From a virus (lineage: Duplodnaviria > Caudoviricetes): a stretch of 35,312 nucleotides of DNA. The notes under the pieces were generated by a model. The model was not told where the DNA came from. It saw only the letters and a program-made list of their open reading frames with translations, and did no database searches. Positions 1,803 through 35,312 of this stretch are shown piece by piece. Position 1 is the stretch's first letter. Every line of letters begins with the position of its first letter. The translations under genes and the position numbers were made by a program. Location: positions 1 through 35,312 of IMG/VR virus record IMGVR_UViG_3300032327_000237; one strand, 5' to 3'.

Positions 1803-1827
1803 TTCTACCTATTAGTTATTTAATTTG

Positions 1828-1860
1828 ACCCTACCTACAATTGAGTAGGTAGGGTTTTTT
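1828..1860 (+). terminator. Rho-independent terminator
   Basis: Perfect 11-bp stem ACCCTACCTAC-aattga-GTAGGTAGGGT followed by Ts. Confidence 0.9.
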
Positions 1861-1873
1861 AATTTATAAGCAA

Positions 1874-4358: not shown

Positions 4359-4361
4359 GCA

Positions 4362-4934: not shown

Positions 4935-4969
4935 ACGCGAGTTTTTAGACAAAGTAAAACAGAAATTCA

Positions 4970-5407: not shown

Positions 5408-5410
5408 ACA

Positions 5411-8700: not shown

Positions 8701-9570
8701 GTAGGTACAAGAACAACCAGTATTGTTGGTGGTATGTTTAGACTTGACACAAGAACCGCAGAACAAAGATTTGTTGTTTTGGGATACCCAACTGGAGGTT
8801 CAGTTGCAACCGAAAGAATATCTGTAAACTTACAAAATGGTGCTACATATTTTAACCCAGCTGAAGGCAATACTGGAATAGGATTAGCAGTAGCTACCTC
8901 TTTATCTTCAAAATTACAAGTAAATGGAAGCGCTGCTATTGGTTATTCAGCAAGTACAACTGCACCTACAAACGGATTGGCGGTTAATGGTACTGCAAAC
9001 TTTGGTAGTACTGGTACAACAACTATTCAAACGGTAATTAATAATGGTATAGTTATAACTGGAGCTTCAACAACTGGTACTCCAGTAGTTGCTTTAAATG
9101 CAACTGGTGCTGCAAATAATAATCAAAGTTTTGATTTTAGAGTTTCTGGTGCAACAAAATTTGCATTTGGTTATACTCAAGCAACTACTAATAGATTTTT
9201 TATATATAATGCAGTTACATTAAATGATGGAATTAGAATAGTAGAGTCGACAAATAACGTATCAATAGGAAATTTTAATGCACTATCAACACTAGAGGTA
9301 GGAGGTAATATGGCTATTGGGTTTTCTGGAGTCTCAGCGCCTACTAATGGATTATCAATTTCTGGTACAACTAATATAGGTACAAATACGTCAGTAACAA
9401 CTGCAAAATTACAAGTATCTTCAACTACTCAAGGTTTTTTGCCACCAGTAATGACTACAACGCAAAAGAATGCGATTGTTTCACCGGCTACCGGATTAGT
9501 GGTATTTGATTCTACATTAGGTAAACTATGTGTATTTAGTGGTACATGGCAAACAATAACTTCAGTATAA
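5788..9570 (+). CDS. Long tail fibre / receptor-binding protein with internal repeats
   Basis: 1260 aa, very T/S/G/A-rich; SVFGRxGxV, EGTNLYYT and repeated LTTTGTSGAATLxxNxLNIPQY motifs; C-terminal STTQGFLPPxMTTTQK motif. Confidence 0.8.
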   Translation: MEILNVTEQIINVNATDEIIDINVTEEIIDINVTEEVINIISQAGAYPLPSNVFSVFGRAGNVVGQVGDYTTSIVGEGTNLYYTEARVDANTNVAANTAARHNAVTIGTGNGLSLSTQALSLALASTSTTGALSSTDFTTFNNKLSTSTAASTYVPYTGATNNLNLGTKNLLATNAFLGFTSLTASGTQLVLTITSAPTYIVNGSGGQTIKLPDATTLPNGANYVFNNNQSSGAILVNNNSNTLVVSIPSGGYCTLELTDNTIAAGSWDKHFETPSNVSWSTNTLDYAGSIINATWNGVAIAPNRGGTGQSTYTDGQLLIGNSTGNTLSKANLSAGTGVSITNGAGTISIASTITQYTDALARAAISLTTTGTSGAATYNSITGVLNIPQYSGGGGSMVYPAAGIALSTGTAWGTSITDNSTNWNTAYTNRITSLTTTGSSGASTLISNVLNIPSYTLSGLGGQASSTNLTSLSGLSYVSTSFVKMTAAGTFTLDTNTYYLNSNPSAFIALSSAITGYTIGTNTALVATDTLNTALGKLQGQVSARQAALSGTINTIAYWDSATSISSLAVATYPTLTELSYVKGVTSAIQTQLTNKQGTLTLTTTGTSGAATLVGNTLNIPQYAGGGSMVYPAAGIALSTGTAWGTSITDNSANWNTAYTNRITSLTNTGTSGAATLISNVLNIPSYTLAGLGGQPLATNLTSLAALSYASASFVKMTAAGTFALDTNTYQGTLTLTTTGTSGAATLVGNTLNIPQYTGGGGSMVYPSAGIAVSTGTAWGTSLTDNSANWDSAYTNRITSLTTTGTSGAATLVGNVLNIPQYSGGGGMSIGGTITSATAGSILFAGASGVLAQNNANFFWDNTNSRLGIGSTTLGSSLQINGNAAIGYLASTAAPVNGLLVSGNTAIGSTTATSKFSVGNKLLMWDSRPTNAPVETTMGYMFNVATPSGLINEDTLAGQPILTLAVNVPQVGTRTTSIVGGMFRLDTRTAEQRFVVLGYPTGGSVATERISVNLQNGATYFNPAEGNTGIGLAVATSLSSKLQVNGSAAIGYSASTTAPTNGLAVNGTANFGSTGTTTIQTVINNGIVITGASTTGTPVVALNATGAANNNQSFDFRVSGATKFAFGYTQATTNRFFIYNAVTLNDGIRIVESTNNVSIGNFNALSTLEVGGNMAIGFSGVSAPTNGLSISGTTNIGTNTSVTTAKLQVSSTTQGFLPPVMTTTQKNAIVSPATGLVVFDSTLGKLCVFSGTWQTITSV
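6889..8268 (+). repeat. Three related long modules inside the fibre gene (about 6889-7284, 7594-7980, partial 7996-8268)
   Basis: Near-identical peptide LNIPQYxGGGSMVYPxAGIAxSTGTAWGTSxTDNSxNWxxAYTNRITSLT occurs three times. Confidence 0.9.
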
Positions 9571-20943: not shown

Positions 20944-21183
20944 ATGATTACTATTTCACTAGCAGCTTTCTTTTTTGCCTATTACTTTGTGGAAGTGGCC
21001 AAAATAGTTTACGTTATAAAAAAGGTATGGAAAATTCCTTTTGACAAAAGAATGAAGCCGTTTGACTGCGTTACTTGCTTAAGCGTTTGGATGGCAGTCT
21101 TATTTTATTTTATGCCGTTTGAGGTCGTACAATTTATTTGTATTATATTTGGGGCTGGATTCATTGGACAAAAAATTAAATAA
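20944..21183 (+). CDS. Small membrane protein with CxxC (DUF1360-like)
   Basis: 79 aa, about three hydrophobic segments, KPFDCVTCLSVW motif. Confidence 0.65.
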   Translation: MITISLAAFFFAYYFVEVAKIVYVIKKVWKIPFDKRMKPFDCVTCLSVWMAVLFYFMPFEVVQFICIIFGAGFIGQKIK

Positions 21184-21184
21184 T

Positions 21185-21418
21185 ATGACACCAGTAATAC
21201 TACCGCTACTTTGCCACAACGATAATACAATTTTATTTGATGAACTTGGCATAGATTACAACTACGAGAATTTAACGAGCGTTGAGTTTATGTTTTTTAA
21301 TATTGACTATGCTTGTAGCAATATCAAAAACAATAGAGAGTTTACAGAAATTGTCAGCACTGGCGAAAGCTTTGTCGTTGACTTAAGCTGGGATGAATTT
21401 AAAAAATTGTTTAAATGA
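21185..21418 (+). CDS. Hypothetical protein; start probably ATG 21185
   Basis: MTPVILPLLCHND..., acidic 77 aa, ATGA overlap with the next gene. Confidence 0.6.
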   Translation: MTPVILPLLCHNDNTILFDELGIDYNYENLTSVEFMFFNIDYACSNIKNNREFTEIVSTGESFVVDLSWDEFKKLFK

Positions 21419-22422
21419 TACAAGTATTAGGCATAACCCAAAAAGGTAGTGGCTGCGGATGGCATAGAGTCACAATGCCGCTTGCGTATATGGATGATGC
21501 TTATAACCATGTTACTAATGTACCTAGCAAAGAAATACTAGAAGAGCGACGATTTGATATATTGTTATACAATAGGTTTAGTCCTTTTGATAATGCTTGG
21601 GATGAAACTAAGCAGCACTTTAAAGTTGTTTTAGACTTAGACGATGACTGGGAGTTACCATATAGCCACCCACTTTATCCATTTTATGAAGCGCAAAAAA
21701 ATCGTTTATTAATTAACTTGCTTAACGCGGACCTTGTTACTTGCACTAACGAGCGCATTGCAGACAAAGTAAGTAAGTACTGCAAGAATATTTTAATACT
21801 ACCTAATTGCATACCACTAGGAGAGCAACAATACACCGACCATAGACACGAAAGCGATTTAGTTCGTATATTCTGGGCCGGAGGTAGCACACACCTAGAA
21901 GATATAAGGCTACTTGCTAATCCTTTAAAAAGGTTAACTGCGTCTAAAGGTTTTGAAATGATATTAGGTGGGTACACCGATAGCGACCCAGTAAGTAAAG
22001 CTTATTGGGACCAAGTGCATAGTATGTTTACCTTTGGTGGAAAGTTTCCTAATAGAAAACTTGCAAGCACTTTGCCCAATAATTATATGAGCCATTTTGA
22101 GCACGCCGACATAATGCTTATTCCTTTGCAAGAAAGCGATTGGCACGCGTGTAAAAGCAATCTAAAGATACTAGAGGCTGCAAGCAAACGCATAGCGGTA
22201 ATATGTAGCCACGTCGAACCATATAGCAAAGATAGCGACGCACCGGTGCTTTGGGTAAAGACTCAAAGCGACTGGTATAAACATATAAACTATTTATTAA
22301 ACAATCCACTAGAAAGGATAAAGCTAGGTGAAGACCTTTACGAGTGGGCAAAAACAAAGTACAACTATGAGTCAATCGGAGCAACTAGACGCGAAGCATT
22401 TGGAAACCTTGTTAAAGCATAA
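21415..22422 (+). CDS. Glycosyltransferase (GT-B fold, GT4-like)
   Basis: SGCGWHRxxMP, DLDDDW, ADLVTCT, WAGGSTHxED, DIMLIPL...KSNLKILEA motifs. Confidence 0.82.
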   Translation: MIQVLGITQKGSGCGWHRVTMPLAYMDDAYNHVTNVPSKEILEERRFDILLYNRFSPFDNAWDETKQHFKVVLDLDDDWELPYSHPLYPFYEAQKNRLLINLLNADLVTCTNERIADKVSKYCKNILILPNCIPLGEQQYTDHRHESDLVRIFWAGGSTHLEDIRLLANPLKRLTASKGFEMILGGYTDSDPVSKAYWDQVHSMFTFGGKFPNRKLASTLPNNYMSHFEHADIMLIPLQESDWHACKSNLKILEAASKRIAVICSHVEPYSKDSDAPVLWVKTQSDWYKHINYLLNNPLERIKLGEDLYEWAKTKYNYESIGATRREAFGNLVKA

Positions 22423-22609
22423 ACACTTCTACGATTTGTTTATTGTTTCTGGCGAGTTAGTAGCATTTACTAACGAAATACAAAACGAACTATTAGAGGT
22501 CATGCGCACACGTGATGCATACTATACGTATAACAACCGCTGCGGTGCTTGTATCGGAACCTTTTTAACTAACGTATATAAAACATTCAATGAGCAACTT
22601 CATTCATAA
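22367..22609 (+). CDS. Small soluble CxxC protein; start probably ATG 22367
   Basis: 80 aa, helical, single RCGACI motif near the C-terminus. Confidence 0.6.
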   Translation: MSQSEQLDAKHLETLLKHKHFYDLFIVSGELVAFTNEIQNELLEVMRTRDAYYTYNNRCGACIGTFLTNVYKTFNEQLHS

Positions 22610-23075
22610 GACGGCCATAGTAGGGCCAAACGTAACACTTGGAGACAATGTTTATATTGGTCCTTATTGCGTAATAGGCGAACCAGCCGAACATAAGCTA
22701 TTTTGGAACGCACCACTAGGCCAAGTGGTAATAGGCGACGACTGCGTAATAACTGGCCATGTAACTATCGACGCTGGTACTACTGAAGTGACAACCATTG
22801 GCGCTGGTACATGGATGCTAAAGCATAGTCACGTCGGACACGATTGTAAAATAGGTACTAATGTAACTATAAGCTGCGGCGCAAAGATAGGTGGCCACAC
22901 ACGTATTGGCAACCATTGTAATATAGGACTTAACGCAGTCATTCACCAAAAGCAAGTAATAGCTCCGGGCTGCATGATTGGTATGGGTGCCGTTATTACA
23001 CGTAAGCTTTATACAACACATTCCACAAAGTATGCTGGGAATCCAGCTAAAGAAATAGGAAAAAATATAATATAA
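22590..23075 (+). CDS. LpxA-like hexapeptide-repeat (left-handed beta-helix) acyltransferase
   Basis: IHKTAIV, IGPYCVIG, SHVGHDCKIG, IGMGAVIT, AGNPAK. Confidence 0.88.
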   Translation: MSNFIHKTAIVGPNVTLGDNVYIGPYCVIGEPAEHKLFWNAPLGQVVIGDDCVITGHVTIDAGTTEVTTIGAGTWMLKHSHVGHDCKIGTNVTISCGAKIGGHTRIGNHCNIGLNAVIHQKQVIAPGCMIGMGAVITRKLYTTHSTKYAGNPAKEIGKNII

Positions 23076-23677
23076 TGAAAGTACTAATTGCCGGCTTAGT
23101 ATATGGAGAAAGGCCAATAGACGCTTTGGTAAATAACCTAGCAAACTTAAATTATGAGGATGCTACCTTTTATGCTATAAATAAAGAAGGTATAGCAAAC
23201 GCTATGAATGAAGCTATTGACATTGCTTTAATGGATGGCTTCGATGCGATTGCTTATTTAGCAAACGATATAATTGAGCCAGACAATTGGCTTAACAAAA
23301 AGGTAGAAGCTTTAAAAACTTATCCTAAAGCTGGCATTGTGGCAAGTAGTTTAGATAGGGTAAGAATTGGCATTAATAGTGAACACATTATAAGCAACTG
23401 GTTATTAAGTATGGACGTAGTTAATACAATAGGTATCTTCAATGAGTCAATGTTTCCGTATGGACCTATTGACTTAGACTATTGCGAGAGGGCCAACCTA
23501 GCTGGATTTAATACTTACTATGTGAAAGATTGTCTTGCCGAACATTTAGGAGGTCATGCTAGCGGTAACGAGTATGGCTACGACAAGGCCGAATTATTAC
23601 AAAAGAATTGGTCTAAACATGAAGCGGATATAAAAGGCTATCGTGAAGGCACTAAAGATATAACAATATGGATGTAA
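23075..23677 (+). CDS. Glycosyltransferase (GT-A fold, GT2-like)
   Basis: GIANAMNEAI, YLAND, IGIFNE..YGPIDLDYCERA, EH motifs. Confidence 0.78.
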   Translation: MKVLIAGLVYGERPIDALVNNLANLNYEDATFYAINKEGIANAMNEAIDIALMDGFDAIAYLANDIIEPDNWLNKKVEALKTYPKAGIVASSLDRVRIGINSEHIISNWLLSMDVVNTIGIFNESMFPYGPIDLDYCERANLAGFNTYYVKDCLAEHLGGHASGNEYGYDKAELLQKNWSKHEADIKGYREGTKDITIWM

Positions 23678-24096
23678 GAGAAAGCGTAACAAGAAAGTTT
23701 AAAGACATAGACGAAGACAAACTAATGGAGTTGGCCTTTGCCTATTGCGACAATTGTATGATGGGACAAAAGCAAGTTGCTACCGGTAGCGGTAAGATAG
23801 TAGAAATACGCGACCGCTTTGTGCCGACAATAGATTACTTTTTAGACCATTGGCTTAGAAAGCATGACTTTGAATTTTATACAAGAATGGGTCTTTGGAA
23901 AATTAGACAAGACCAGACACACCCTTATCATGAGGTGGCAAACAGAATAGTTACAATGTTTAAATCATTAGCTATTGATATTGTTGCTAACGAAGGTAAA
24001 GCTATTTTCTATGCTAAGAATGCATTAGGAATGACCGATAGGGCCATGACTGAGAATACAAACATAGACACCATCACAATCAAGTATGAATCTTGA
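23668..24096 (+). CDS. terS: Terminase small subunit
   Basis: 142 aa immediately upstream of terL; PTIDxF and IFYAKNALGMTDR motifs. Confidence 0.7.
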   Translation: MDVRESVTRKFKDIDEDKLMELAFAYCDNCMMGQKQVATGSGKIVEIRDRFVPTIDYFLDHWLRKHDFEFYTRMGLWKIRQDQTHPYHEVANRIVTMFKSLAIDIVANEGKAIFYAKNALGMTDRAMTENTNIDTITIKYES

Positions 24097-25252
24097 TATA
24101 AAGCTATGTAAGCCGCACCCAGCACAAAAGCAAGTCTTGGACTCCGACGCTCGTTTTAGGGTTATGATGTGTGGGCGTAGGTTTGGTAAGTCATTAATTA
24201 GTCAAAACATATCTATTGAGACGGGCCTACAAAGAAAGCACGTAGCCTATATAACACCTACTTACCAATTAGGTAAGATGTTTTTTAAGGAAATATGTAA
24301 GCTTTTGCCAGATAAGGTTTATAAAAAGAACGAGACCGATTTACTTATCGACTTTGTTACTGGTGGCTCTGTAAGGTTTTATACCGGAGAGCGTTTAGAT
24401 GCTATGCGTGGAACCAAATACCATTTAGTTATTATAGATGAGGCCTCGTACATACCTAATTTAGAAGAGGGATGGAATAATAGTATAAGGCCAACACTTA
24501 CCGACTTTAAAGGTAAGGCAATATTCTTAAGCACGCCACGTGGCAAAAACTATTTTTATAGCTTATTCATGCGTGGCGGTGAGCCTAACTGGGAGTCTTT
24601 TAAGTTTACTACTTACGATAACCCACATATAGACCCTACGGAAGTTGACGCAGCTGCGGCCCAATTGCCATCGGTAGTATTTAAGCAAGAATACCTTGCA
24701 GACCCTATGGAGAATGCAGCCAACCCTTTTGGCTCCGAGTTTATCTATGCTTGCACTAAAGAGACTAAAGGCGTAGCGGCTTACTATGGTATTGACTTAG
24801 CTAAGTCGGTCGATTGGTCCGTTATAATTGGTATGGACAAGCAAGGTAATGTCGTGCATTTTGAAAGGTTCCAAAAAGACTGGATGCAAACTAAAGAGAC
24901 AATATTAAGGTTGCCAAAGAACATACCGATAGTAATTGACTCAACTGGCGTAGGAGACGCCATAGTAGAAGACCTACAAAAAAAGTTTAACAAAATGTAT
25001 GGGTTTAAGTTTACGGCTACAAGCAAGCAGCAACTACTTGAGTCATTAAGTAGCGCTATACAGACTAAAAGCATTAGCTATCCAGATGGACCGATTAAAC
25101 AAGAACTAGAAGTGTTTGAATATACCTTTACACCAACTGGTGTAAGATACTCGGCACCACAAGGATTCCACGACGACTGCGTTATTGCTTTGGCTTTGGC
25201 TAACAAGTGCCGTATTGAGCACAAAGAGGTAGGCAAGTACCACGTTATTTAA
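24086..25252 (+). CDS. terL: Terminase large subunit
   Basis: GRRFGKS Walker A, IIDEA Walker B, LSTPRG, QEYLA, GIDLA and HDDCVIALA nuclease motifs. Confidence 0.95.
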   Translation: MNLDIKLCKPHPAQKQVLDSDARFRVMMCGRRFGKSLISQNISIETGLQRKHVAYITPTYQLGKMFFKEICKLLPDKVYKKNETDLLIDFVTGGSVRFYTGERLDAMRGTKYHLVIIDEASYIPNLEEGWNNSIRPTLTDFKGKAIFLSTPRGKNYFYSLFMRGGEPNWESFKFTTYDNPHIDPTEVDAAAAQLPSVVFKQEYLADPMENAANPFGSEFIYACTKETKGVAAYYGIDLAKSVDWSVIIGMDKQGNVVHFERFQKDWMQTKETILRLPKNIPIVIDSTGVGDAIVEDLQKKFNKMYGFKFTATSKQQLLESLSSAIQTKSISYPDGPIKQELEVFEYTFTPTGVRYSAPQGFHDDCVIALALANKCRIEHKEVGKYHVI

Positions 25253-25271
25253 AAACTATATTTATAATAGT

Positions 25272-25910
25272 ATGAAGCTAACAATTGAGAAATTCCAAAA
25301 ACTGCAAGACTTATCAATACTTGAGGAAAGCGAACAAGATAAGTCAAGCCGTATTATTCAAATACTCTTAGATAAAACTATGGAGCAAGTGGATAAAATG
25401 CCGGAAAAGAAGTTTAATAAGCTTTGCTTAAGTATTAAAAACTTATTTGAATTAGAGGTTGAGAATGCAGTAACAAGTAAGCCGCAAAGATTAATTAAAG
25501 CAAATGGCAATTGGTATAGATTAAACTTTGAAATTAAAAGGCCTTTTAATGCTGGTAGGTATATAGAGGTCTTGACATTTAGTAAAGGCAATCCAATAGT
25601 TGATATGCACAATATCCTAGCTAGTATTTGCACACCTTTAAAATGGAGTTGGAAAAGGTTTAAATTAATCAACCAACCATACGATGCGCTAAGCCACGAA
25701 AAATATGCAGACGATTTCAAGCAAGCAGACTTTAAACATGGTTATCATGCTATGGTTTTTTTTTGCATACTATTAACCAATTTAACGAGCAATACAAGGG
25801 CTTATTCGGCTCAAGAAGTAATGAGGATAATGAGCAATCAAAAGAGGTTAAGAGTATTGAAGAGAAATTTCAAGAAGATTTTGGATGGGTTTACAACGCA
25901 TCAAAAGTAG
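25272..25910 (+). CDS. Putative tail assembly chaperone (0-frame product)
   Basis: Contains the slippery run ATG GTT TTT TTT TGC at 25752-25766. Confidence 0.6.
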   Translation: MKLTIEKFQKLQDLSILEESEQDKSSRIIQILLDKTMEQVDKMPEKKFNKLCLSIKNLFELEVENAVTSKPQRLIKANGNWYRLNFEIKRPFNAGRYIEVLTFSKGNPIVDMHNILASICTPLKWSWKRFKLINQPYDALSHEKYADDFKQADFKHGYHAMVFFCILLTNLTSNTRAYSAQEVMRIMSNQKRLRVLKRNFKKILDGFTTHQK

Positions 25911-26047
25911 CAGACTTTGAGAGAATACCACTAGACTTGGTATACGATTTGCCGGTAATACAATTTTTAAACGATTTGAGCTATTTAAAACAAAAACTAA
26001 GTGTAGATGAGTATCAACATAAGCAGCGCACAAAAGAAGGCACTTAG
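25763..26047 (+). CDS. -1 frame extension of the tail assembly chaperone (G-T type fusion)
   Basis: ORF opens at the T9 run in the -1 frame; YKGLF...FGWVY...LPVIQFLNDLSY looks like a genuine protein. Confidence 0.65.
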   Translation: MHTINQFNEQYKGLFGSRSNEDNEQSKEVKSIEEKFQEDFGWVYNASKVADFERIPLDLVYDLPVIQFLNDLSYLKQKLSVDEYQHKQRTKEGT

Positions 26048-26663
26048 CGAAGGTTTTGACTTTGGCGGTGAGGACCTATCACAATTTGGAGTAATAAGTA
26101 ATGTATTAGAGCAATATGGCAACTTGTTTCTTGAGAATATAGACAAGTATGCAGACGAATTAAGTGTTACCAGTAGTGGTAGCTTACTTAAGTCTATGAG
26201 TGCTGAAATCAAAGACTCTAATAACATTAAGTCATTCACACTCAAGCTTTTAGATTATTACGATTATCCAAACGAAGGAGTAAAAGGTGTTGATAGTAGC
26301 AATAACGCTCCCGACTCACCATATCAATACAAAAACTACGGAATGCCACCGGAGGCCCTAAGTAGCTTAAAAAAATACATACTTAGTGGAAAAGCTAAAA
26401 TTGCTAGTGTTAAAAATGACAAAGCACTAGGAATTGGACAAGAAAAGAAAGGATTAAAGCAAAGAGACAAAAAAGCACTTATAGAACGTCAAGTGTTGAC
26501 TATGGCTTATTTGATTAAAAAATATGGTATTAAAGCAACGCACTATTTTGACCTAGCTTTTGAAGATACGTTTAAAGATTTTGACGACGTAATGACAGAG
26601 GCGCTTGGTGAGGATGTGCAAATAACAATAGACTTAATGAGCAAGAAATATGGCAATAACTAA
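26007..26663 (+). CDS. Putative neck/tail completion protein (HK97 gp10-like)
   Basis: SSGSLLKSM, YYDYPNEGVKG, IKKYGIKATHYF motifs. Confidence 0.6.
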   Translation: MSINISSAQKKALSEGFDFGGEDLSQFGVISNVLEQYGNLFLENIDKYADELSVTSSGSLLKSMSAEIKDSNNIKSFTLKLLDYYDYPNEGVKGVDSSNNAPDSPYQYKNYGMPPEALSSLKKYILSGKAKIASVKNDKALGIGQEKKGLKQRDKKALIERQVLTMAYLIKKYGIKATHYFDLAFEDTFKDFDDVMTEALGEDVQITIDLMSKKYGNN

Positions 26664-27786
26664 TTTAGCTTACCCAAGTGGTAGCCCATCGTTACAAGAT
26701 AGCTTGTGGCACATTTTTGATAGCAACATTACAAGCACCGACTTAAAATATGTCGTTGATTTGTTCGTAGGCGGAGTGCAACAAGTAAGAGTTAAAATAT
26801 ATCCAGAGCCACTAAGTGGATTAGGTTATTTTGATGCTGGACCTATTGTTCGTAATACTATTACTTATCAATGGTTTACACCTAAAGAAGAGTTATTAGT
26901 TTGTGAGCCAAACGTAAGCGGTGAAGTAGCGCAAACTTACCAATATAGAATAGGTGATGAAGCAAGCGGTATAACTAATTTAAATTTAGCTAGTGGTAAT
27001 GTTACGGCTTATAATTGGACGGCTCCAGTATTTAAAAGAAAGGTAAGTGATATTAGCACTTATAACGGAAAAGCATTTACTAATAGACCTAGCACAATTG
27101 ATTTAAATTTAACAGATAATTTATACATAGGAGCTAAGCAAGTAAGCGGCGTAACTATTGCGACTTATAATGAAAGCAACACATTAATAACCAGCACTAA
27201 TTTAACATTAACTACATTAAGACAATTTGTTCAATTAAACATTGGACCTAATGCTTTAAATACAACTTACGGAAGTAGTTTAATAAATAGCTCGGTTAAA
27301 TATTATATGGTTACAATTGGAACAAGTATTTTTAGAGTTAATGTTTTATGCAATCCAAAATATGAAAGTAATAACTTACACTTTATTAATCATTTAGGAG
27401 TTTTTGATACCGCCGTATTTGATTTATCTAGTAGGTTAATGATGGACGTACAAAGAAAAGGTTTTGAAAAAAGGGATTATACCTATGGCGCAACGTCTGT
27501 TAATTACTTTGATGCTAATAAAAAATATGTTGATAGCAAAGTAAACTACTTAAATATTAAAGACCATAGTTATAAACTTACAATGAATGCGCCAACAGAC
27601 GCTGACTACGAATGGCTTGCAGAATTAATAGACTCACCTCAAGTTTATTTTGAGTTAGATGGTTATTATTATCCAGTAAGCATTAAGAATAATAATTACG
27701 AGTATAGTAAATACATAAATAATAGACTTAGAGTTTTTGAGGTTGAAATTGATATTAACCAAACGCGTTATAGCCAATTAAGATAA
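26650..27786 (+). CDS. Tail structural protein (distal tail/baseplate-like)
   Basis: 378 aa beta-rich; FINHLGVFD and WLAELIDSPQVY motifs; upstream of the tail tip gene. Confidence 0.6.
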   Translation: MAITNLAYPSGSPSLQDSLWHIFDSNITSTDLKYVVDLFVGGVQQVRVKIYPEPLSGLGYFDAGPIVRNTITYQWFTPKEELLVCEPNVSGEVAQTYQYRIGDEASGITNLNLASGNVTAYNWTAPVFKRKVSDISTYNGKAFTNRPSTIDLNLTDNLYIGAKQVSGVTIATYNESNTLITSTNLTLTTLRQFVQLNIGPNALNTTYGSSLINSSVKYYMVTIGTSIFRVNVLCNPKYESNNLHFINHLGVFDTAVFDLSSRLMMDVQRKGFEKRDYTYGATSVNYFDANKKYVDSKVNYLNIKDHSYKLTMNAPTDADYEWLAELIDSPQVYFELDGYYYPVSIKNNNYEYSKYINNRLRVFEVEIDINQTRYSQLR

Positions 27787-27787
27787 C

Positions 27788-30700
27788 ATGACAAGAATTT
27801 TTATTGAAGGATACGAACTGGATTTAACGCAAGGCATAAGTAATCAAATTACTTATGCTATTGATGATTTGCATAACTTAGATAGTAAAAGTACAAGCTT
27901 TAGTAAAACAATTGTATTACCCGGAACTGCTAAAAATAATAAGCTTCTAGGTAATATCTTTGATTTTAATAATGCAAACTTTGATAATCCTTTAGAGCCT
28001 AACGTATTGCAAAACTTTAACGCAGCACGCAACGCCATTGCTCGTATTGAAGTAGACGGATTACAGATTATAAAAGGAGTTTTAAGACTACTTGAAATAA
28101 TAAACTTAGACGATGCAATAGAATATGAGTGCGCAATATTTGGAGAATTAGGCGGATTTATTAACGCACTTGGAAATAAAAGATTAACTGGTAATGATAA
28201 TCCTTTAGATGACTTAGACTTTAGTATTTATAACCATACTTATAGTTATGCTAATATTGTAAGTAGTTGGGACACGTCTGGTAGCACCGGTTATTGTTAT
28301 CCACTTATTGATTATGGTAATGTTAGTACTGGAGCTTATGGTATTGCTAAAAAAGATTTTCAATACAATACATTTAAACCAGCTTTATTTGTAAGAGAAT
28401 ATTTAAATAAAATATTTAATGCTAGCGGATATACTTACGAATGTGCTTTATTTGATACTACAATTTTTAGAAATTTAGTTATACCATGTAATCAAAAGAT
28501 AATTACAAAAGAAACAAGTAACGTTCTTAACTTAACTAAGTCAATAGGTCAGTCAATGAATACTGGTGGCACGCAAGACTTTATTAGTTATGAAACTAAA
28601 GTAGGTGCTTTATTTACTGCAAGTGCTGGTGATACTATATTTACTTATACTGGAACGCCAACATTAACAACAACTTTAAATATTGAAATACAAGGAGAAT
28701 ATAGTTTAAGTGTAAGACCTTTAACAATAGCAGTACTTAAAAATGGTACAATTATACCCGGCTCAAGTGTAACATATAATGGAAGCGATTTGCTTTATTA
28801 TAATAAAACTTTGTCAGTATCACTAGCTACAAGTGACTCATTAAGAGTAAGGACAAGTCTAGTAATTAATGGGGGAGATTTTGTGCAAGTTAATGAAAGT
28901 ACAATAAGTATAATTAATAGCGTTGCAACAACTGCGCCAATTGGACTAGGTGAAACAATGCTTATAAATAATACTATTCCGAGAGGTATTTTTCAAAAGG
29001 ATTTTGTTACCTCTATTATGAAAATGTTTAACTTAATGATTGTAGAGGATAAATATAAAACTAATCATTTAATAATTAAACCTTATATAGACTTTTACGA
29101 TGGTACTATTATTGATTGGTCCGACAAATTAGATAGGAGTAAACCTATTAAAATAAAACCTATGAGCGAAATAAACGCTCGATATTATAATTTTAAATTT
29201 AAGCAAGACAATGATTTCTACAATGAAGATTATACTAAGAAATTTAATGAGGGATATGGTGATAGGATATACGATAATGGTTTGGAATTTGCAAAAGATA
29301 CTGAAAGCGTTGAAGTAATCTTTGCATCAAGTCCTTTATATGGTACAAATACAACAGATAAAGTTTTCCCAGCTATTTATAAGAAATCTAGCGAAAATAC
29401 AAAAGAGGACCCAATGGACCATATTATACGTATACTACAAGTAAAGAAATTAAGTGGTGTTGCAAGTTGGTCTATTTATAATTTATTTACTAACTTAGGA
29501 AATAATACTAGTTATCTTTATGGTGGTCATTTAAACGACCCAATTACACCTAGCATAGATTTAAACTATGGGGCACCGCAGCAATTATTTTTTAATTTAA
29601 CAAGTGGTAACTTAAGTAATAACTTATTTAATACTTACTACTCACCTTATATGTCGGAAATTACCGATAAAGATAGCCGTTTACTAACTGGCTTTTTTGA
29701 TTTAAAACAACTTGATATTTATAATATAGACTTTGCTAAGTTTATTTATATAGATGGCGGATTATATAGAATAAGTAAAATAAGTGATTATAGCACCGAA
29801 GGTAATGAAACTACAAAAGTAGAGTTATTACGTGTAATTGATAAGTTTACTATTGTTATTGATGTAACGCCAAATTGGGTAAGTCAAGGATTTAATACTT
29901 GTAGCAGTTGTGCTAATTACTTAGTTTATAGAGACATTAATCCAAGTAGCCCTACTTATAATAACTATCAAGTTAATGGAGTTAATGTAGGTAATACGGC
30001 TCCAGCAAATGGAAATTGTGTTACTACTGGATTTTGGACAAGTCAATCTTATACTACTTGTATTGATTGTGCTAATTTAGACGTTCAAAGAGACACTAAC
30101 GCTTGTAGCGCAACATATAATCAATATAGAGCTGGAGGCGTTGTATTAGGCCTTACCGCTCCAGCAAGTGGCCTTTGTAATGTAACACCTAATTTTGTTA
30201 GTCAATCTTATAATACTTGCGTTGATTGTGTTAATTATCTTGTTTATAGAGACACAACACCTTGTAGCCCTACTTATAATAATTATAGAGTTAATGGAGT
30301 TAATGTAGGCCTTACCGCTCCAGCAAATGGAAATTGCGTTACTACTGCTACTTGGACGAGTCAAGCTTATAATACTTGTATTGATTGTGTTAATTATTTA
30401 GTTTACAGAGACACTAATCCTTGTAGTGCTACTTTTAATAATTACCGAGTAAACGGAGTTAACGTAGGTAATACGGCTCCAGTAAATGGAAATTGCAATA
30501 CTACTGCTACTTGGACAAGTCAAGCTTATAATACTTGCGTTGATTGTACTAATTATCTTGTTTATAGAGACACTAATCCTTGTAGTGCTACTTTTAATAA
30601 TTATAAGGTTAACGATGTTAACGTAGGTAATACCGCACCAACAAACGGAAATTGTGTTACTACTGCAAGATGGGTAAGAGACGGCGATGAATTTTGTTTT

Positions 30701-31783
30701 AACTGCGTAGCTTATCAACCTCAAAGAGACACTAATCCTTGTAGTGCTACTTACAATACTACAAGAAATTTAAATCAAGGTGCATCTTCACCTTGCGTTT
30801 ACGATGCTACTTGGACAAGTCAAGGTTATAATACGTGCGTAAGTTGTGTTAACTATTTAGTTTATAGAGATACAAATGCTTGTAGTGCTACTTATAATAA
30901 CTACCGAGTAAACGGAGTTAACGTAGGTAATACGGCACCAGCAAACGGAAATTGTGTTACTACTGCTAATTGGGTTAATAATGGAGCTACATTTTGTTCT
31001 AGCTGCGTAGCTTATCAACCTCAAATAGATAATAACCCTTGTAGTGCAACTTACAATACTACAAGAAATGTAAACTTAGGCGCTGCGGCACCTTGTAATT
31101 ATACCGCAAACTATGCAACAAATGTAGGAAATTTATATGTGTGCAATGTTCCAAATGGTGGCGTTAATACATACATAGTATATCAAAATACAAATGCTTG
31201 CTTTACTGGTAATCAATTCTATGCAAATGGTAATAGTTACGCAACTAATCCTAGTAATAGTTATCCAGATACTACACAAAATTGGGTTTCAAATGGTGCT
31301 AACTATTGCGTAGGTGTTGATTTATATCAACCTCAAAAACAAAATAATCCTTGCGCAGTTAATTACAATGGAGTAAGAGACCAATTAATACAAGCTAATT
31401 CTCCAACTTGTTCCGAAAGTTATACAATGAGTAATTGCTTAGGTGGTGGCGGCACTACATATAGCGCAACTTACGTATTAGGTAGCTTTAGTATTAATGA
31501 GCGAGTAACAAGTAGTGGAGTAACTTATGTTATTACTGGTACTACAACGCCAACTGCGGGTATATCAATAACAACTACTGGATTAACTGGATGTCCACAA
31601 TATACCCAGTTTACCGATTTATGTACAAGTGCAACTTATTACATACTTGGAACTGGTTATAGCAGCGTTGGAACAAGTAGCGACATACCGGATGCGTGTT
31701 TGCAACCAACCGGCACAACGTCAACACCAACTGGAACCCAAATATATAATTTCACTAGCAACCCAAGTTGTGAGTGTGTATAA
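27788..31783 (+). CDS. Tail tip/baseplate hub protein with C-terminal Cys-rich repeat extension
   Basis: N-terminal FSKTIVLPGTxKNN, YPLIDYG, KMFNL, DWSDKLD motifs; about 10 Cys-rich repeats after aa 694. Confidence 0.75.
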   Translation: MTRIFIEGYELDLTQGISNQITYAIDDLHNLDSKSTSFSKTIVLPGTAKNNKLLGNIFDFNNANFDNPLEPNVLQNFNAARNAIARIEVDGLQIIKGVLRLLEIINLDDAIEYECAIFGELGGFINALGNKRLTGNDNPLDDLDFSIYNHTYSYANIVSSWDTSGSTGYCYPLIDYGNVSTGAYGIAKKDFQYNTFKPALFVREYLNKIFNASGYTYECALFDTTIFRNLVIPCNQKIITKETSNVLNLTKSIGQSMNTGGTQDFISYETKVGALFTASAGDTIFTYTGTPTLTTTLNIEIQGEYSLSVRPLTIAVLKNGTIIPGSSVTYNGSDLLYYNKTLSVSLATSDSLRVRTSLVINGGDFVQVNESTISIINSVATTAPIGLGETMLINNTIPRGIFQKDFVTSIMKMFNLMIVEDKYKTNHLIIKPYIDFYDGTIIDWSDKLDRSKPIKIKPMSEINARYYNFKFKQDNDFYNEDYTKKFNEGYGDRIYDNGLEFAKDTESVEVIFASSPLYGTNTTDKVFPAIYKKSSENTKEDPMDHIIRILQVKKLSGVASWSIYNLFTNLGNNTSYLYGGHLNDPITPSIDLNYGAPQQLFFNLTSGNLSNNLFNTYYSPYMSEITDKDSRLLTGFFDLKQLDIYNIDFAKFIYIDGGLYRISKISDYSTEGNETTKVELLRVIDKFTIVIDVTPNWVSQGFNTCSSCANYLVYRDINPSSPTYNNYQVNGVNVGNTAPANGNCVTTGFWTSQSYTTCIDCANLDVQRDTNACSATYNQYRAGGVVLGLTAPASGLCNVTPNFVSQSYNTCVDCVNYLVYRDTTPCSPTYNNYRVNGVNVGLTAPANGNCVTTATWTSQAYNTCIDCVNYLVYRDTNPCSATFNNYRVNGVNVGNTAPVNGNCNTTATWTSQAYNTCVDCTNYLVYRDTNPCSATFNNYKVNDVNVGNTAPTNGNCVTTARWVRDGDEFCFNCVAYQPQRDTNPCSATYNTTRNLNQGASSPCVYDATWTSQGYNTCVSCVNYLVYRDTNACSATYNNYRVNGVNVGNTAPANGNCVTTANWVNNGATFCSSCVAYQPQIDNNPCSATYNTTRNVNLGAAAPCNYTANYATNVGNLYVCNVPNGGVNTYIVYQNTNACFTGNQFYANGNSYATNPSNSYPDTTQNWVSNGANYCVGVDLYQPQKQNNPCAVNYNGVRDQLIQANSPTCSESYTMSNCLGGGGTTYSATYVLGSFSINERVTSSGVTYVITGTTTPTAGISITTTGLTGCPQYTQFTDLCTSATYYILGTGYSSVGTSSDIPDACLQPTGTTSTPTGTQIYNFTSNPSCECV
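29870..31411 (+). repeat. Ten tandem Cys-rich repeats (mostly 53 aa/159 bp; short variants about 47 aa)
   Basis: Consensus WxSQxYNTCxxCxNYLVYRDTNPCSxTYNNYRVNGVNVGNTAPxNGNCxTT. Confidence 0.95.
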
Positions 31784-31796
31784 AAAATAAAAAATA

Positions 31797-33782
31797 ATGG
31801 CAAAAAAGACAAAAGTAATAGGCGCAAAGATTGAAGTTGATACCTCGGGTGCCAGTAAATCTGTAAGTGAATTAGGAAAAGAATTAGGTAGCTTATCACC
31901 AGCTGCAAAAAAAGCTGGTGATGCTGCAAACCTTTTTAATAATGCTTTAAATATTATTAGGGCAAACCCAATAATTGCAGTAGTTACAACCCTTGTAGGA
32001 GTGGTAACAGCACTATTCCAGCCATTTAAAAAAATGGAGGGTGTAAGTGATGCGCTTGGTAAATCTTTTGGAATCTTAAGCGGTATATTTACTACGTTTA
32101 TAACCAAAATACTTACTCCATTAATAGACGGATTTATACAATTTACCGAAGTTATTAATAATGGTTTAATAGGTGCGCTTGATGCGTTAGGTATTTCAAG
32201 TAAAGCAACAAGTGAACGCTTTGGAGAAATTACAGAGGCCCTAGATGACCTAGACGATGCGCAAAGAAATTCAGCTTTAGCAACTGCGGAATCAAATAGA
32301 AAATTACAAGAAGCTAGAGAAATTGCAGCGGATGCAAATAGACCAATAAAAGAAAGAGTTATAGCTTTAAAAGAAGCAGCAAGAATAGAAAAAGAAGAGA
32401 CAGACAAAGTCATAGCTATTAATAAGCAAAGGGCTTCTTTATTATTAGAGCAACTTGCACTAGAACTTGGAGCACGTGAAAATGTTTTAAAAGTTATTAG
32501 AAGTGGAACTTTAGAGAATTTAAAGATAGCACGTGCCGAGTTAATGGGTATGAAAAACATTGACAAAGATAAGCTTGCGGCTATTGATGCACTTATTATT
32601 GCCGCTGAAGATGCCGGCGCACAAAGTGCTAAAATTGCAAAGCGCACGCAAGGTCAAGTTAATGCAATAGAAAAAGAAGGACAAGCAAAAGCACTAGAAC
32701 AAAAAAATAAGGCATTTGAAGATAAGCTAAAGCTTATGGAGGCAAACGATAAGCTTGACATAGCAGCGCTTGATAAGCAAAAAGCTATTGCTTTAAATAC
32801 TGCTAAGAGTGAGCAAGAAAAACTAGACATAGAGATTTTATATGCAAAAAAATCTTTTGATTTAAGAAATAAAGATTTACTAGATAAGCAAGGACTTTAT
32901 AAAAAAGATAGCTTAGAATACAAAACATTGCAAGCAGAAATTATAAAGCTTGGCACAGAAAACATAGACAAGCAAACAGAGCTTGCGGATAAGCAAAAAG
33001 TAATAGATACTAAAATTACAGATGATAAAAAGAAAGCTTTAGAAGATAGATTAAAGTCTCAACAAGAATGGGACGCTTTTTATTATAAACAATTAGAAGA
33101 TTTAAAAAAACTAGAGCAAGAAAGACAAGACTCAATTCTTGCAATCAATATAGCAATTAGTCAAAGCTGGATTAATTTAGGTACTAATATAGCTAATACT
33201 ATTGGTAATCTTAATAGTGTATTTGCTGAAGGTAGCGACTTAGCTAAAGTATTTGGAATTGCTCAAGTTGCAATTTCTACGGCTGCAAGTATAGGCTCAA
33301 TTTTACAAAGTGGCAGACAACAACAAGCGGAATATAACAAAGCTATTGCCGCTGGTAATGCTACAATTGGTATAGGTATTGCTAATGCTTTTATTCCGGG
33401 AATGCAAGGCTTAGCAGCTTCGCAAATATTATCTGGTAAAGCCGCGGTCGGTGCCGCAATGGTAGGAAAGGGAGTTTCTAAAGCTAATACAATAGCTCAA
33501 GCAGTTGGTGCCGGTGTATCTGGTGCGGCACAAATAGCAGCTATTTTAGCAGCTGGTAAAAGCAAAAGTGCGCCATCAACTGGAGGCGGAGGTGGTGCGG
33601 ACGGAGGTAGTAGCGTAGTTGCAAGCGCTCCATTGTTACCAATGGCATCAACAACAACTTTAAACCAAGCGCAAGTTAACCAAATGGGCAACCAGTCACA
33701 AAGGGCCTATGTAGTTGAAAGCGACATAAGCGGCAATCAAGAACGTATTATAAGGCTTAACAGAGCGGCAAGAATAAACTAA
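31797..33782 (+). CDS. Tape measure protein
   Basis: 661 aa, Ala/Lys/Glu-rich helical; ANPIIAVV motif, long coiled coil, hydrophobic Gly/Ala C-terminal part, RAYVVESDI end. Confidence 0.8.
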   Translation: MAKKTKVIGAKIEVDTSGASKSVSELGKELGSLSPAAKKAGDAANLFNNALNIIRANPIIAVVTTLVGVVTALFQPFKKMEGVSDALGKSFGILSGIFTTFITKILTPLIDGFIQFTEVINNGLIGALDALGISSKATSERFGEITEALDDLDDAQRNSALATAESNRKLQEAREIAADANRPIKERVIALKEAARIEKEETDKVIAINKQRASLLLEQLALELGARENVLKVIRSGTLENLKIARAELMGMKNIDKDKLAAIDALIIAAEDAGAQSAKIAKRTQGQVNAIEKEGQAKALEQKNKAFEDKLKLMEANDKLDIAALDKQKAIALNTAKSEQEKLDIEILYAKKSFDLRNKDLLDKQGLYKKDSLEYKTLQAEIIKLGTENIDKQTELADKQKVIDTKITDDKKKALEDRLKSQQEWDAFYYKQLEDLKKLEQERQDSILAINIAISQSWINLGTNIANTIGNLNSVFAEGSDLAKVFGIAQVAISTAASIGSILQSGRQQQAEYNKAIAAGNATIGIGIANAFIPGMQGLAASQILSGKAAVGAAMVGKGVSKANTIAQAVGAGVSGAAQIAAILAAGKSKSAPSTGGGGGADGGSSVVASAPLLPMASTTTLNQAQVNQMGNQSQRAYVVESDISGNQERIIRLNRAARIN

Positions 33783-33817
33783 AAGTACATTAAGCACAAA
33801 AAAGATATTTATTAAGT

Positions 33818-34846
33818 ATGGACTTACCTATTTACGAACTTAAGATTCAAGAAGAGTTGCAAGACGATGCCGAGGTTTCGTTTATTGCACTTGTAGACAA
33901 GCCGGCCATTCAGCGTGATTTTGTAGCATTTACTCAAGATTTTATACAACCAAATAAAGGCGAAGGCAAAGATGCATTTTTACCTAGGTGCATAAGCTAT
34001 GTAATTAATGAAGGTAAAGAAAGTGAGCAAGCAGTAGCTATTTGTAATTCTATGTGGGAACAACACTTTGCAGCTGCTAAAGTTTCATTTGATTATGATG
34101 ATACCTTAAGTACTGATAGGGGCAAAGAAATGGCTAAAAGAGCAATAGCAGCTGGAAATACGCTTTATATTATTTCAGCTAGACAAGATAAAGAAGGAAT
34201 GCTAAGCGTAGCTAAAGAATTAGGCATACCAGAAAGCAGAGTTTATGCAACTGGCTCAAATAAAGCTAAAGTTGAAAAAATTAAAGAACTTGGAATTTCT
34301 AAACATATAGATAATAATGCAGACGTAATTAAAGAACTTGGACCAATTGGCTCTAAGTTTAATTTTGAAATGTTTGCTATTCAAGATGAAGATAAGCATA
34401 TTATAAGTGGACCATTAATGTTAGCGGATAAACCTATTTATAGAAATAATAGCAAATTTGGAGAACATTATGTCGTATTTAGTGCCGACACTATTAAAGA
34501 TATTGCGATTAAATTTAGCAAAAAAGGCTACCAAGGTAACGTTAATTTAATGCATGACCAAGATATGCAGCTAGATGGTCTTATAATGTTTGAAAGCTTT
34601 TTAGTTGATAAAGCTAGAGGTATACACCCAATGTCGGGGTTTGAAGATGCAAAAGATGGTAGCTGGTTTGGTAGCTTTTATGTAGAAAATCAACAAGCTT
34701 GGGATTTAATTAAACAAGGTAAAGTAAAAGGTTTTAGCGTTGAGGGTTACTTTGAATATCCTACCGAAACTAAAGCTCCTACTTATGCAGAACAAAAGCT
34801 AGCAGAACTAGCAGAACTATTAAAAGTACCTTTAACACATAAATAA
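33818..34846 (+). CDS. Prohead maturation protease (XkdF-like serine protease) with inserted HAD-like domain
   Basis: IALVDKPAI, GPLMLADKPIYR, NLMH, GSWFGS, WDLIKQGKVKGFSVEG; insertion with FDYDDTL. Confidence 0.8.
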   Translation: MDLPIYELKIQEELQDDAEVSFIALVDKPAIQRDFVAFTQDFIQPNKGEGKDAFLPRCISYVINEGKESEQAVAICNSMWEQHFAAAKVSFDYDDTLSTDRGKEMAKRAIAAGNTLYIISARQDKEGMLSVAKELGIPESRVYATGSNKAKVEKIKELGISKHIDNNADVIKELGPIGSKFNFEMFAIQDEDKHIISGPLMLADKPIYRNNSKFGEHYVVFSADTIKDIAIKFSKKGYQGNVNLMHDQDMQLDGLIMFESFLVDKARGIHPMSGFEDAKDGSWFGSFYVENQQAWDLIKQGKVKGFSVEGYFEYPTETKAPTYAEQKLAELAELLKVPLTHK

Positions 34847-34857
34847 TATATATAAAC

Positions 34858-35312
34858 ATGGAACAAGCACAAAACATTCTTAACAAAGTTTCTATGTTCT
34901 TTGCAGAACTTGTAGGAAACGAAGCAATGCCAATGCCTAGCGGAGAAACTGCGGCACCGGTAAAAATGATGCAAGCTAAATTATTAGACGGCACCATTGT
35001 TGAAGTAAGTGATTTAGCAGTAGGTGGAATTGTTACTATTGATGGTCTACCAGCTCCGGTTGGTGAACATACTTTAGAAACAATGGACACTATTGTTGTT
35101 GGTGACAATGGCGTTATTATGGAAATTAAGCCTAAAGTTGAAGATATGCCAACAATGGAAGTTCCAGTAGTTGAAGACATGAGCGCAAAGTTTGCAGCTT
35201 TTGAGTCAGCAACAAACGAAAAATTCACCGCTTATGAGTCTAAATTTGCTCAATACGAAGCTAAATTAGGCCAAGCAAACAAAGTAATTGAAGGCCTTAT
35301 GCAAATTAGCAA
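34858..35312 (+). CDS. Putative capsid scaffolding protein, 5' part (joins to 124-247; about 192 aa total)
   Basis: ATG at 34858 (MEQAQNILNKVSMFFAELVG...), open to the window end, lies between protease and major capsid genes; missing from the ORF track because it spans the join. Confidence 0.75.
   Translation, partial: MEQAQNILNKVSMFFAELVGNEAMPMPSGETAAPVKMMQAKLLDGTIVEVSDLAVGGIVTIDGLPAPVGEHTLETMDTIVVGDNGVIMEIKPKVEDMPTMEVPVVEDMSAKFAAFESATNEKFTAYESKFAQYEAKLGQANKVIEGLMQIS
35190..35312. repeat. 123-bp direct terminal repeat (right copy)
   Basis: Identical to 1-123; lies inside an ORF that continues across the join. Confidence 0.97.

What the first reader, a model, noticed from the sequence alone, without database searches (positions are those of the whole stretch)
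29870..31783. Cys pattern of the tail-tip repeats implies a disulfide-stapled chain
Seen: internal units 2-8 each have four Cys (C1xxC2...C3...C4). Unit 1 lacks only C3 (NPSS at 29939-29950). Unit 10 lacks only C2 (NYCVGV). Divergent unit 9 keeps just two Cys (YVC, NAC). The C-terminal cap has six Cys, giving 42 in total by my count. Inference: every Cys is accounted for if C1 pairs with C4 within a unit and C2 of unit n pairs with C3 of unit n+1. The first unit then needs no C3, the last needs no C2, and unit 9 has lost the C1-C4 pair together (taking its YVC as the C2 equivalent). This favours disulfides linking neighbouring units over one Zn site per unit, which is unusual for a protein assembled in a reducing cytoplasm.
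Basis: partly seen in the sequence, partly recalled or inferred. Interest (0 to 1): 0.8.

Follow-up and report, generated by a model that had tools for sequence, protein, structure and literature searches.

The report
Disulfide-stapled repeat arm on phage tail
A tail-module protein of an uncultured phage ends in ten cysteine-rich repeats whose cysteines are lost and gained in matched pairs across hundreds of related proteins, so the repeats likely form a rod held by disulfide bonds within each unit and between neighbouring units, a building block that no family library searched here describes.

Summary
Homologues strongly support the pairing rule. Across 889 junctions between adjacent units (244 proteins), the Cys total over C1/C2/C4 of unit n plus C3 of unit n+1 is even in 888: two in 157, four in 608, six in 123. 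Whole arrays keep only C1+C4. Other proteins alternate units lacking C3 and units lacking C2. This fits disulfides C1-C4 and C2(n)-C3(n+1) and fits a four-Cys metal site poorly. The unit also occurs in apparently secreted Bacteroidota proteins and beside DUF5977 stalk repeats. No Pfam or PDB match. 'Tail tip' is likely, not shown. Disulfides in phage virions are already known (Pam3, Milano), so the reducing-cytoplasm surprise is smaller than claimed. This scan earlier noted a related Cys-rich protein on other DNA, but not the pairing. Verdict: real, an undescribed disulfide-linked stalk repeat, new variant of a known kind.

The parts
27788..31783 (+). 1331-aa tail-module protein, likely the tail-tip hub, carrying the repeat arm
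   Evidence: ORF; lies between a 378-aa ORF and a 661-aa tape-measure-like ORF, order conserved in L005; no Pfam or PHROG hit at the limits used
27788..29866 (+). Conserved N-terminal domain (res 1-693), 4 Cys; res 240-381 form a TNF/C1q-like jelly roll
   Evidence: 3534 relatives; model pLDDT 59; Z 13.9 to BclA C-terminal domain, rmsd 3.3 over 127 aa, and Z 13.3 to a cyanophage A4 tail chain; weak Foldseek hit to lambda gpJ, E 1.5e-4, TM 0.12
29867..30019 (+). Unit 1: C705, C708, C744; no C3
30020..30655 (+). Units 2-5, 53 aa each, four Cys each
30656..30796 (+). Unit 6, short 47-aa type, four Cys
30797..30955 (+). Unit 7, 53 aa, four Cys
30956..31096 (+). Unit 8, short 47-aa type, four Cys
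31097..31273 (+). Unit 9, long-hairpin two-Cys type: C1119 (C2-like), C1138 (C3); Tyr1117 at the C1 place, no C4
31274..31411 (+). Unit 10, terminal type: C1174, C1189, C1208; no C2
31412..31600 (+). Cap domain 1 (res 1209-1271), small beta domain, C1217 and C1269
   Evidence: model strands; weak Tudor/SH3-like matches, best Z 4.5; 53 matches in 51 proteins
31601..31783 (+). Cap domain 2 (res 1272-1331), C1279, C1304, C1328, C1330; candidate binding tip
   Evidence: 34 proteins

Best explanation
The 3' third of this phage gene encodes ten small repeats and a two-domain cap, predicted to be all-beta, whose 42 cysteines likely form 21 disulfides, C1-C4 closing each unit and C2 of one unit bonding to C3 of the next, so that the chain would be a covalently stapled arm projecting from what is likely the tail-tip hub. 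Shown: the Cys pattern, its pairwise gain and loss in homologues, the variable unit number (7-14 on the same N-terminal domain) and the spread of the unit to unrelated phage proteins and to apparently secreted Bacteroidota proteins. Predicted: each unit is a beta-hairpin (W...C1, tight turn holding C2, return strand), a loop with C3, a third strand and C4. Inferred pairs: 705-744, 708-773, 758-797, 761-826, 811-850, 814-879, 864-903, 867-932, 917-956, 920-985, 970-1003, 973-1032, 1017-1056, 1020-1085, 1070-1103, 1073-1138, 1119-1189, 1174-1208, 1217-1269, and two among 1279/1304/1328/1330. Inferred function: a stalk that works like the stalk repeats of fibrillar adhesins, holding the cap out from the tail to reach host surface glycans or proteins. 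Every standard unit donates one Cys forward and accepts one from behind, so units can be added or removed by recombination without leaving a free thiol. Inferred timing: the units fold with reduced thiols in the cytoplasm and oxidise when the virion meets air and periplasmic oxidants at lysis.
For: Junction table, 889 junctions in 244 proteins, the window's own protein left out: spare Cys in n and C3 in n+1, 857; spare Cys without C3, 0; no spare Cys but C3, 1; neither, 31. Junction totals 2:157, 3:1, 4:608, 6:123; 10,000 shuffles gave at least 49 odd totals against 1 observed. C1+C4-only junctions: 30, in 12 proteins and 7 of 43 lineage clusters. All 11 internal units with an odd Cys count have even junctions on both sides; P0200, P0208 and P0209 alternate C3-less and C2-less units, and in P0147 loss of one tail Cys is followed by a C3-less unit. 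0 of 241 last units keep CxxC with no downstream Cys, which is what C1-C2 pairing would predict. DUF5977-like repeats have 2 Cys before another such repeat (37 of 37) and 3 before a C3-bearing unit (10 of 10, one gut-phage family). Cys from a C3-less first unit to the C-terminus is even in 101 of 114 proteins, upstream control 53 of 114. Unrelated C-terminal extensions on the same N-domain have even Cys in 66 of 68, N-domain control 41 of 104. The unit occurs in 9 proteins with signal-peptide-like starts, one with a T9SS sorting domain above cut-off (P0188) and one named from a Chitinophagaceae genome (P0208). Model of units 6-10 plus cap: pLDDT 93.5, all beta. Virion disulfides are documented in Pam3 and Milano.
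Against: No S-S distance was measured (model coordinates not delivered) and no chemistry exists. The C3 window was widened to -1..+3 after I had seen the exceptions; the raw table was 853/7/7/31 of 898. Junctions are not independent: 195 of 245 proteins chain into one cluster. 648 of 659 internal units are also even within the unit, so the inter-unit claim rests on array ends and 11 odd units. In 50 of 106 C3-bearing first units the nearest upstream Cys is at the C4 place (W-6), so C3 can probably pair with C4 too and the four sulfurs sit close together; 12 of 106 have no Cys within 12 residues upstream. 13 of 114 proteins have odd totals. His takes the C1 place in 25 of 128 two-Cys units, 24 of them in one family. 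The profile nearly requires a Cys at C1, so units with no head Cys are under-detected. The unit also occurs in gut phages, where oxygen is scarce. The signal-peptide screen was a crude hydrophobicity test (11 flagged of 245, 9 kept by eye).
Confidence: 0.78

Rival explanations
1. One metal site per junction: C1, C2 and C4 of unit n plus C3 of unit n+1 bind Zn (or Fe), either permanently or as a folding aid in the cytoplasm that is released when the thiols oxidise at lysis.
For: CxxC plus two distant Cys is a typical Zn signature (own knowledge). The end pattern of unit 1 fits. The four sulfurs appear clustered. Tail-tip Cys4 Fe-S sites exist in lambda gpL (PMC10721106). His at the C1 place in 25 of 128 two-Cys units.
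Against: 157 junctions keep exactly two Cys and 123 have six; one of 889 has three. Lost Cys are replaced by V, G, T (C2) and N, Y, S (C3), with His in 2 cases at C2 and none at C3. Whole arrays run on C1+C4 alone. Units occur in apparently exported proteins. A transient Zn-loaded precursor is not excluded by any of this.
Confidence: 0.1
2. Disulfides, but in another register in standard units: C1-C2 across the turn and C4(n)-C3(n+1).
For: In 50 of 106 C3-bearing first units the nearest upstream Cys is at the C4 place.
Against: C2 and the next C3 are lost together while C1 and C4 stay (30 junctions). No last unit keeps CxxC without a downstream Cys (0 of 241). Two-Cys units lack C4 yet the next unit keeps C3 (127 junctions). 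The model's strands put the turn at 15-18 of the unit, not 14-17 (my reading of the strand limits).
Confidence: 0.07
3. The C2-C3' bond links different chains of a trimeric tail fibre, giving a cross-linked three-stranded rod.
For: The N-domain has a TNF/C1q-like fold; such folds and tail hubs are usually trimers (own knowledge). Covariation cannot tell intra- from inter-chain pairs. Inter-chain disulfides occur in Pam3 and Milano.
Against: The single chain models at pLDDT 93.5. The unit works in many unrelated backgrounds, including apparently secreted cell proteins.
Confidence: 0.05

Closest known systems
DUF5977 (PF19404), listed as a stalk domain of fibrillar adhesins (10.1101/2020.12.07.414375, passages read)
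   Same: Cys-bearing tandem repeat of Bacteroidota and their phages; found interleaved with this unit in the same proteins; gains a third Cys when it precedes a C3-bearing unit
   Different: No PF19404 hit on the window protein or its units; shorter unit (46-59 aa against a 65-position model), different motif
Disulfide networks of cyanophage Pam3 (PMC9942802) and Agrobacterium phage Milano (PMC10811340), passages read
   Same: Disulfides in tail proteins of phages assembled in the bacterial cytoplasm
   Different: Those are mainly inter-subunit links in the baseplate, sheath and fibre anchors of myophages; here a regular, likely intra-chain staple in a modular repeat, about 21 bonds per chain
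Lambda gpL tail-tip Cys4 iron-sulfur site and gpJ central fibre (PMC10721106, passages read)
   Same: Cys cluster in a siphophage tail-tip protein; weak fold hit of the N-domain to gpJ
   Different: gpL has one four-Cys site; here Cys come and go in twos and are repeated ten times
Thrombospondin type 1 repeats of properdin (features recalled)
   Same: Small elongated three-stranded, Trp- and Cys-bearing modules strung into rods; weak matches Z 2.7-2.8, rmsd 3.7-3.8 over 44 aa, Foldseek E 0.019
   Different: Scores are at background level; no Pfam TSP hit; an analogy only

Membership tests
DUF5977 (PF19404) | Match to the Pfam model | tested here: not met
   No hit for the whole protein at E 0.01 or for the repeat region and single units at E 1
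Fibrillar-adhesin stalk repeat (works-like) | Tandem domains less than 35 residues apart | tested here: met
   Ten abutting units; criterion from 10.1101/2020.12.07.414375
Fibrillar-adhesin stalk repeat (works-like) | Occurs with anchor and adhesive domains in surface proteins | tested here: met
   Homologous units with BACON, Ig, cadherin-like, VWA, LRR domains and a T9SS sorting domain; the window's own cap has no known adhesive family
Fibrillar-adhesin stalk repeat (works-like) | Elongated rod that projects a binding tip | not testable with these tools
   Model coordinates not delivered; pTM 0.56 leaves the inter-unit geometry uncertain
Cys4 zinc or iron-sulfur site | Four ligands kept together, or replaced by His/Asp | tested here: not met
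   Junction totals 2:157, 3:1, 4:608, 6:123; His rare at C2 and absent at C3
Cys4 zinc or iron-sulfur site | Tetrahedral SG geometry and bound metal | not testable with these tools
   No coordinates, no chemistry
Siphophage tail-tip hub (Tal/BHP, gpJ/gpL, pb3) | Gene next to tape-measure and distal-tail genes | tested here: inconclusive
   Flanked by a 378-aa ORF and a 661-aa Ala/Lys-rich helical-looking ORF, order conserved, but neither neighbour matched a family
Siphophage tail-tip hub (Tal/BHP, gpJ/gpL, pb3) | Hub-domain fold HDI-IV | tested here: inconclusive
   Model poor outside res 240-381; Foldseek hit to gpJ 8xcj_F E 1.5e-4, TM 0.12; VIA lists filled by the TNF-like domain
Thrombospondin type 1 repeat | Pfam match or clear fold match | tested here: inconclusive
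   No Pfam hit; Z 2.7-2.8 only
DsbB/VKOR-type membrane thiol oxidase (for ORF 20944-21183) | Invariant CxxC at the start of a membrane helix | tested here: met
   CxxC in 120 of 120 listed homologues, followed by a hydrophobic segment; the DsbB/VKOR placement is recalled
DsbB/VKOR-type membrane thiol oxidase (for ORF 20944-21183) | Family model match | tested here: not met
   No DsbB or VKOR hit in Pfam or PDB; one of 14 members hit DUF1360 at E 0.13; PF07098 found nothing in 27 records
DsbB/VKOR-type membrane thiol oxidase (for ORF 20944-21183) | Four-helix quinone-binding fold and oxidase activity | not tested

The most novel reading that the evidence does not exclude
These phages build disulfide-rich virion arms inside the cytoplasm with a redox relay of their own: a 79-aa membrane protein (20944-21183) whose invariant CxxC is predicted to face the cytoplasm, and an 80-aa soluble CxxC protein (22367-22609), both core genes and adjacent in the more distant relatives. 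That would be a bacteriophage counterpart of the poxvirus cytoplasmic disulfide pathway (recalled). Co-occurrence does not support it: both genes are kept in relatives with no large Cys-rich protein and were not found in other repeat-bearing phages.
Probability: 0.12. Interest if true: 0.85.

Novelty: new variant of a known kind. Interest (0 to 1): 0.58.

Why it matters
It defines a repeat family (1237 units in 245 proteins found here) that has no Pfam, NCBIfam or PDB match, with an unusually clean rule for how its cysteines pair. If right, it is a small modular rod of adjustable length, shared between Bacteroidota surface proteins and several unrelated phage groups. The even Cys counts in 66 of 68 other extensions suggest that this abundant phage family decorates its tail with disulfide-rich modules in general. 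That makes a neglected question directly testable: when and how do cytoplasm-made phage proteins get many correct disulfides, and does infectivity depend on them?

Tried and rejected
SG-SG distances: the model file is not delivered to the script machine. Trimer test of units 6-8: the complex predictor was not available, so intra- versus inter-chain stays open. Family libraries: nothing for the repeat in Pfam, PHROGs (best E 0.002, no passing stretch), NCBIfam, PDB sequences or ESM Atlas. Fold search of the arm: no PDB match at E 0.001, best Z 4.5; two BFVD hits at E under 1e-4, uncharacterised or unnamed. No cultured phage holds the N-domain; the repeat hit one gut phage record. Within-unit C2-C3 pairing rejected by array ends and 11 of 11 odd units. 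C1-C2 pairing disfavoured. Cys counts per cap domain were spoiled by envelope overlap and are not used. Phage thiol-oxidase idea: ORF 20944-21183 is in 22 of 22 near-complete relatives and ORF 22367-22609 in 15 of 15 tested family members, but both also occur in G017/G019, which have no Cys-rich ORF of 250 aa or more (the 80-aa gene of G017 seen in L058), and neither was found in 8 other repeat-bearing records of 10-67 kb or 12 gut-phage records (narrow profiles, one handle not held). Literature searches found no description of the repeat; none for a phage CxxC relay. PMC12750041 and PMC13370021 (passages) had nothing on it. The library lacks most subscription papers and no supplements were read.
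Full report
Setting. The window is a whole phage genome: it has a 123-base terminal repeat and is held as a virus record of 35312 bases. It encodes a large terminase, portal, head protease, primase-polymerase, helicase, endolysin and two glycosyltransferases. Relatives of the tail protein were found in 3 of 185,579 species genomes, two Chitinophagaceae and one Bacteroidota MAG, so the host is likely a Bacteroidota; contigs in MAGs can be contaminants. The finding lies in ORF 27788-31783 (1331 aa), between a 378-aa ORF and a 661-aa tape-measure-like ORF; that order recurs in L005.

Observation.

What carries the repeats. Residues 1-690 form a conserved domain with 3534 relatives among 7999 candidates scored. 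Many relatives end at about 680 aa; others carry unrelated extensions with Thr-rich linkers, small Cys domains or Ig-like domains. Of 138 stored proteins with this domain 27 carry the repeat, with 7 to 14 units; 222 repeat-bearing proteins lack the domain. So the repeat is a mobile add-on. The N-domain model is poor overall (pLDDT 59). Residues 240-381 are a TNF/C1q-like jelly roll (Z 13.9, rmsd 3.3 over 127 aa to BclA; Z 13.3 to a cyanophage A4 tail chain), a fold common in phage receptor-binding parts. The only hub-like signal is a weak Foldseek hit to lambda gpJ (E 1.5e-4, TM 0.12). I put 'tail-tip hub' at about 70%.

Covariation. Searches gave 131 proteins (best 120 listed) and 145 cluster representatives, 246 in all. 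An iterated profile found 1237 units in 245 of them. For each pair of adjacent units I counted head Cys (C1/C2 region), tail Cys (C4 region) and the next unit's C3. Raw table, window included: 853 spare-Cys-and-C3, 7 spare-without-C3, 7 C3-without-spare, 31 neither, of 898. Thirteen of the 14 misfits went away when C3 was allowed from one residue before to three after its column; after that change, made once I had seen them, and with the window's protein left out, the table is 857/0/1/31 of 889. Junction totals are 2 (157), 3 (1), 4 (608), 6 (123); shuffling the C3 labels 10,000 times gave a mean of 61 and a minimum of 49 odd totals. These are related sequences, so the p-values overstate; the C2/C3' co-loss class falls in 12 proteins and 7 of 43 lineage clusters, one of which is a loose chain of 195 proteins.

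Within or between units. 648 of 659 internal units are also even when counted within the unit, so ordinary units do not decide. The ends and the odd units do. In 25 of 25 relatives with the same architecture the first unit lacks C3 and the last has one head Cys. All 11 odd internal units have even junctions on both sides. P0200, P0208 and P0209 alternate a C3-less unit with a C2-less unit; in P0147 the unit that lost one Cys of its three-Cys tail is followed by a C3-less unit; P0163 shows C2 loss followed by C3 loss twice. In P0009 an internal C2-less unit has gained a Cys two residues before C4. DUF5977-like repeats, picked by a regular expression, have two Cys before another such repeat in 37 of 37 distinct cases and three before a C3-bearing unit in 10 of 10 (7 proteins of one gut-phage family); six looser cases gave 3 to 5.

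Which head Cys goes with C4. Arrays that keep one head Cys and C4 have it mostly at W+7 or W+8 (26 of 31), the C1 place (565 of 590 standard units). Two-Cys units have theirs at W+10 (109 of 128), next to C2 (W+11 in 524 of 590), with Tyr (89), His (25) or Trp (7) at the C1 place. The model agrees: unit 7 and unit 9 have the same first strand length, which puts Tyr1117 where C1 is and Cys1119 in the turn. Of 241 untruncated last units none keeps CxxC without a downstream Cys within 32 residues (that Cys may sometimes belong to a cap). Against a fixed register: in 50 of 106 C3-bearing first units the nearest upstream Cys sits at the C4 place, and 12 of 106 have none within 12 residues. The four sulfurs are therefore probably neighbours.

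Disulfide or metal. A four-Cys site across the junction explains unit 1 but not 157 two-Cys and 123 six-Cys junctions with a single three. Lost Cys are not replaced by His at C3 (0 of 179) and rarely at C2 (2). The 25 His at the C1 place are 24 from one family plus one and come with loss of C4. Whole-arm parity is even in 101 of 114 proteins against 53 of 114 upstream. Other extensions on the same N-domain are even in 66 of 68, against 41 of 104 for the N-domain itself (7 of 111 proteins dropped for lack of the boundary motif; many share 14 Cys by descent). The unit also sits in proteins that look exported: 9 with signal-peptide-like starts, one with a T9SS sorting domain, one named from a Chitinophagaceae assembly with a 7.6-Mb contig. 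Exported proteins of Gram-negative bacteria pass an oxidising periplasm (established knowledge). A Zn-loaded cytoplasmic precursor remains possible.

Structure. Units 6-10 plus cap model at mean pLDDT 93.5, pTM 0.56, all beta, from 87 sequences. No solved fold matches.

How the bonds could form. The protein has no signal peptide and assembles in the cytoplasm. Disulfides in such particles are known: Pam3 has intra- and inter-subunit bonds in wedge and fibres, some confirmed by MS (PMC9942802, passages); Milano has a network in sheath and baseplate (PMC10811340, passages; the searched passages did not say how they form). Oxidation at or after lysis is the plain reading (inference). The genome has two small core genes with invariant CxxC: a 79-aa membrane protein (CxxC in 120 of 120 listed homologues; mean 5.7 Lys/Arg in the loop before it, which by the positive-inside rule puts it on the cytoplasmic side) and an 80-aa soluble protein. 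They are present in 22 of 22 and 15 of 15 near-complete family members, also where no large Cys-rich protein exists, and were not found in other repeat-bearing phages. So the relay is a lead at about 12%.

Comparison and verdict. It works like a fibrillar-adhesin stalk (DUF5977 is listed as one in 10.1101/2020.12.07.414375, passages) but is not a DUF5977 member. Seven paper searches found no account of the repeat or of a phage CxxC relay. Real, well supported by sequence evidence, unproven chemically. New variant of a known kind; interest 0.58.

Noticed in passing
window 20944-21183 (+) and 22367-22609 (+): Two small unannotated core genes with invariant CxxC, one a membrane protein with the motif predicted on the cytoplasmic side, one soluble; adjacent in more distant relatives. 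Possible redox pair or shared metal site.
   Followed up: partly
window 21415-23677 (+); P0247-P0317 C-terminal extensions: Two glycosyltransferases and a hexapeptide acyltransferase in the genome, while relatives of the tail protein carry long Thr-rich, mucin-like linkers between small even-Cys domains. Virion glycosylation is a possibility.
   Followed up: no
window 28505-28930 (+), res 240-381 of the 1331-aa ORF: TNF/C1q-like jelly-roll domain inserted in the N-terminal domain; candidate receptor-binding part.
   Followed up: partly
   Followed up: partly
L007:3079-7590 (OR575929.1); L089-L168: The unit interleaved with DUF5977 and BACON domains in roughly 150-kb gut phages; a reverse transcriptase gene lies about 2.3 kb upstream in OR575929.1.
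   Followed up: partly
P0199, P0200, P0207, P0208, P0209, P0225, P0246: Large Bacteroidota proteins with signal-peptide-like starts, some named YD-repeat proteins, end in C1+C4-only or alternating arrays of the unit.
   Followed up: partly
window 5788-9570 (+): A 1260-aa tail-fibre-like protein (phrog_31660) with internal repeats and only 2 Cys, so Cys richness is specific to the arm.
   Followed up: no
window 24086-35312 and 1-5782: Gene order puts the tail-tip and tape-measure-like genes between terminase and head genes, with the portal after the capsid and tube genes; conserved in L005 as far as the locus reaches.
   Followed up: no
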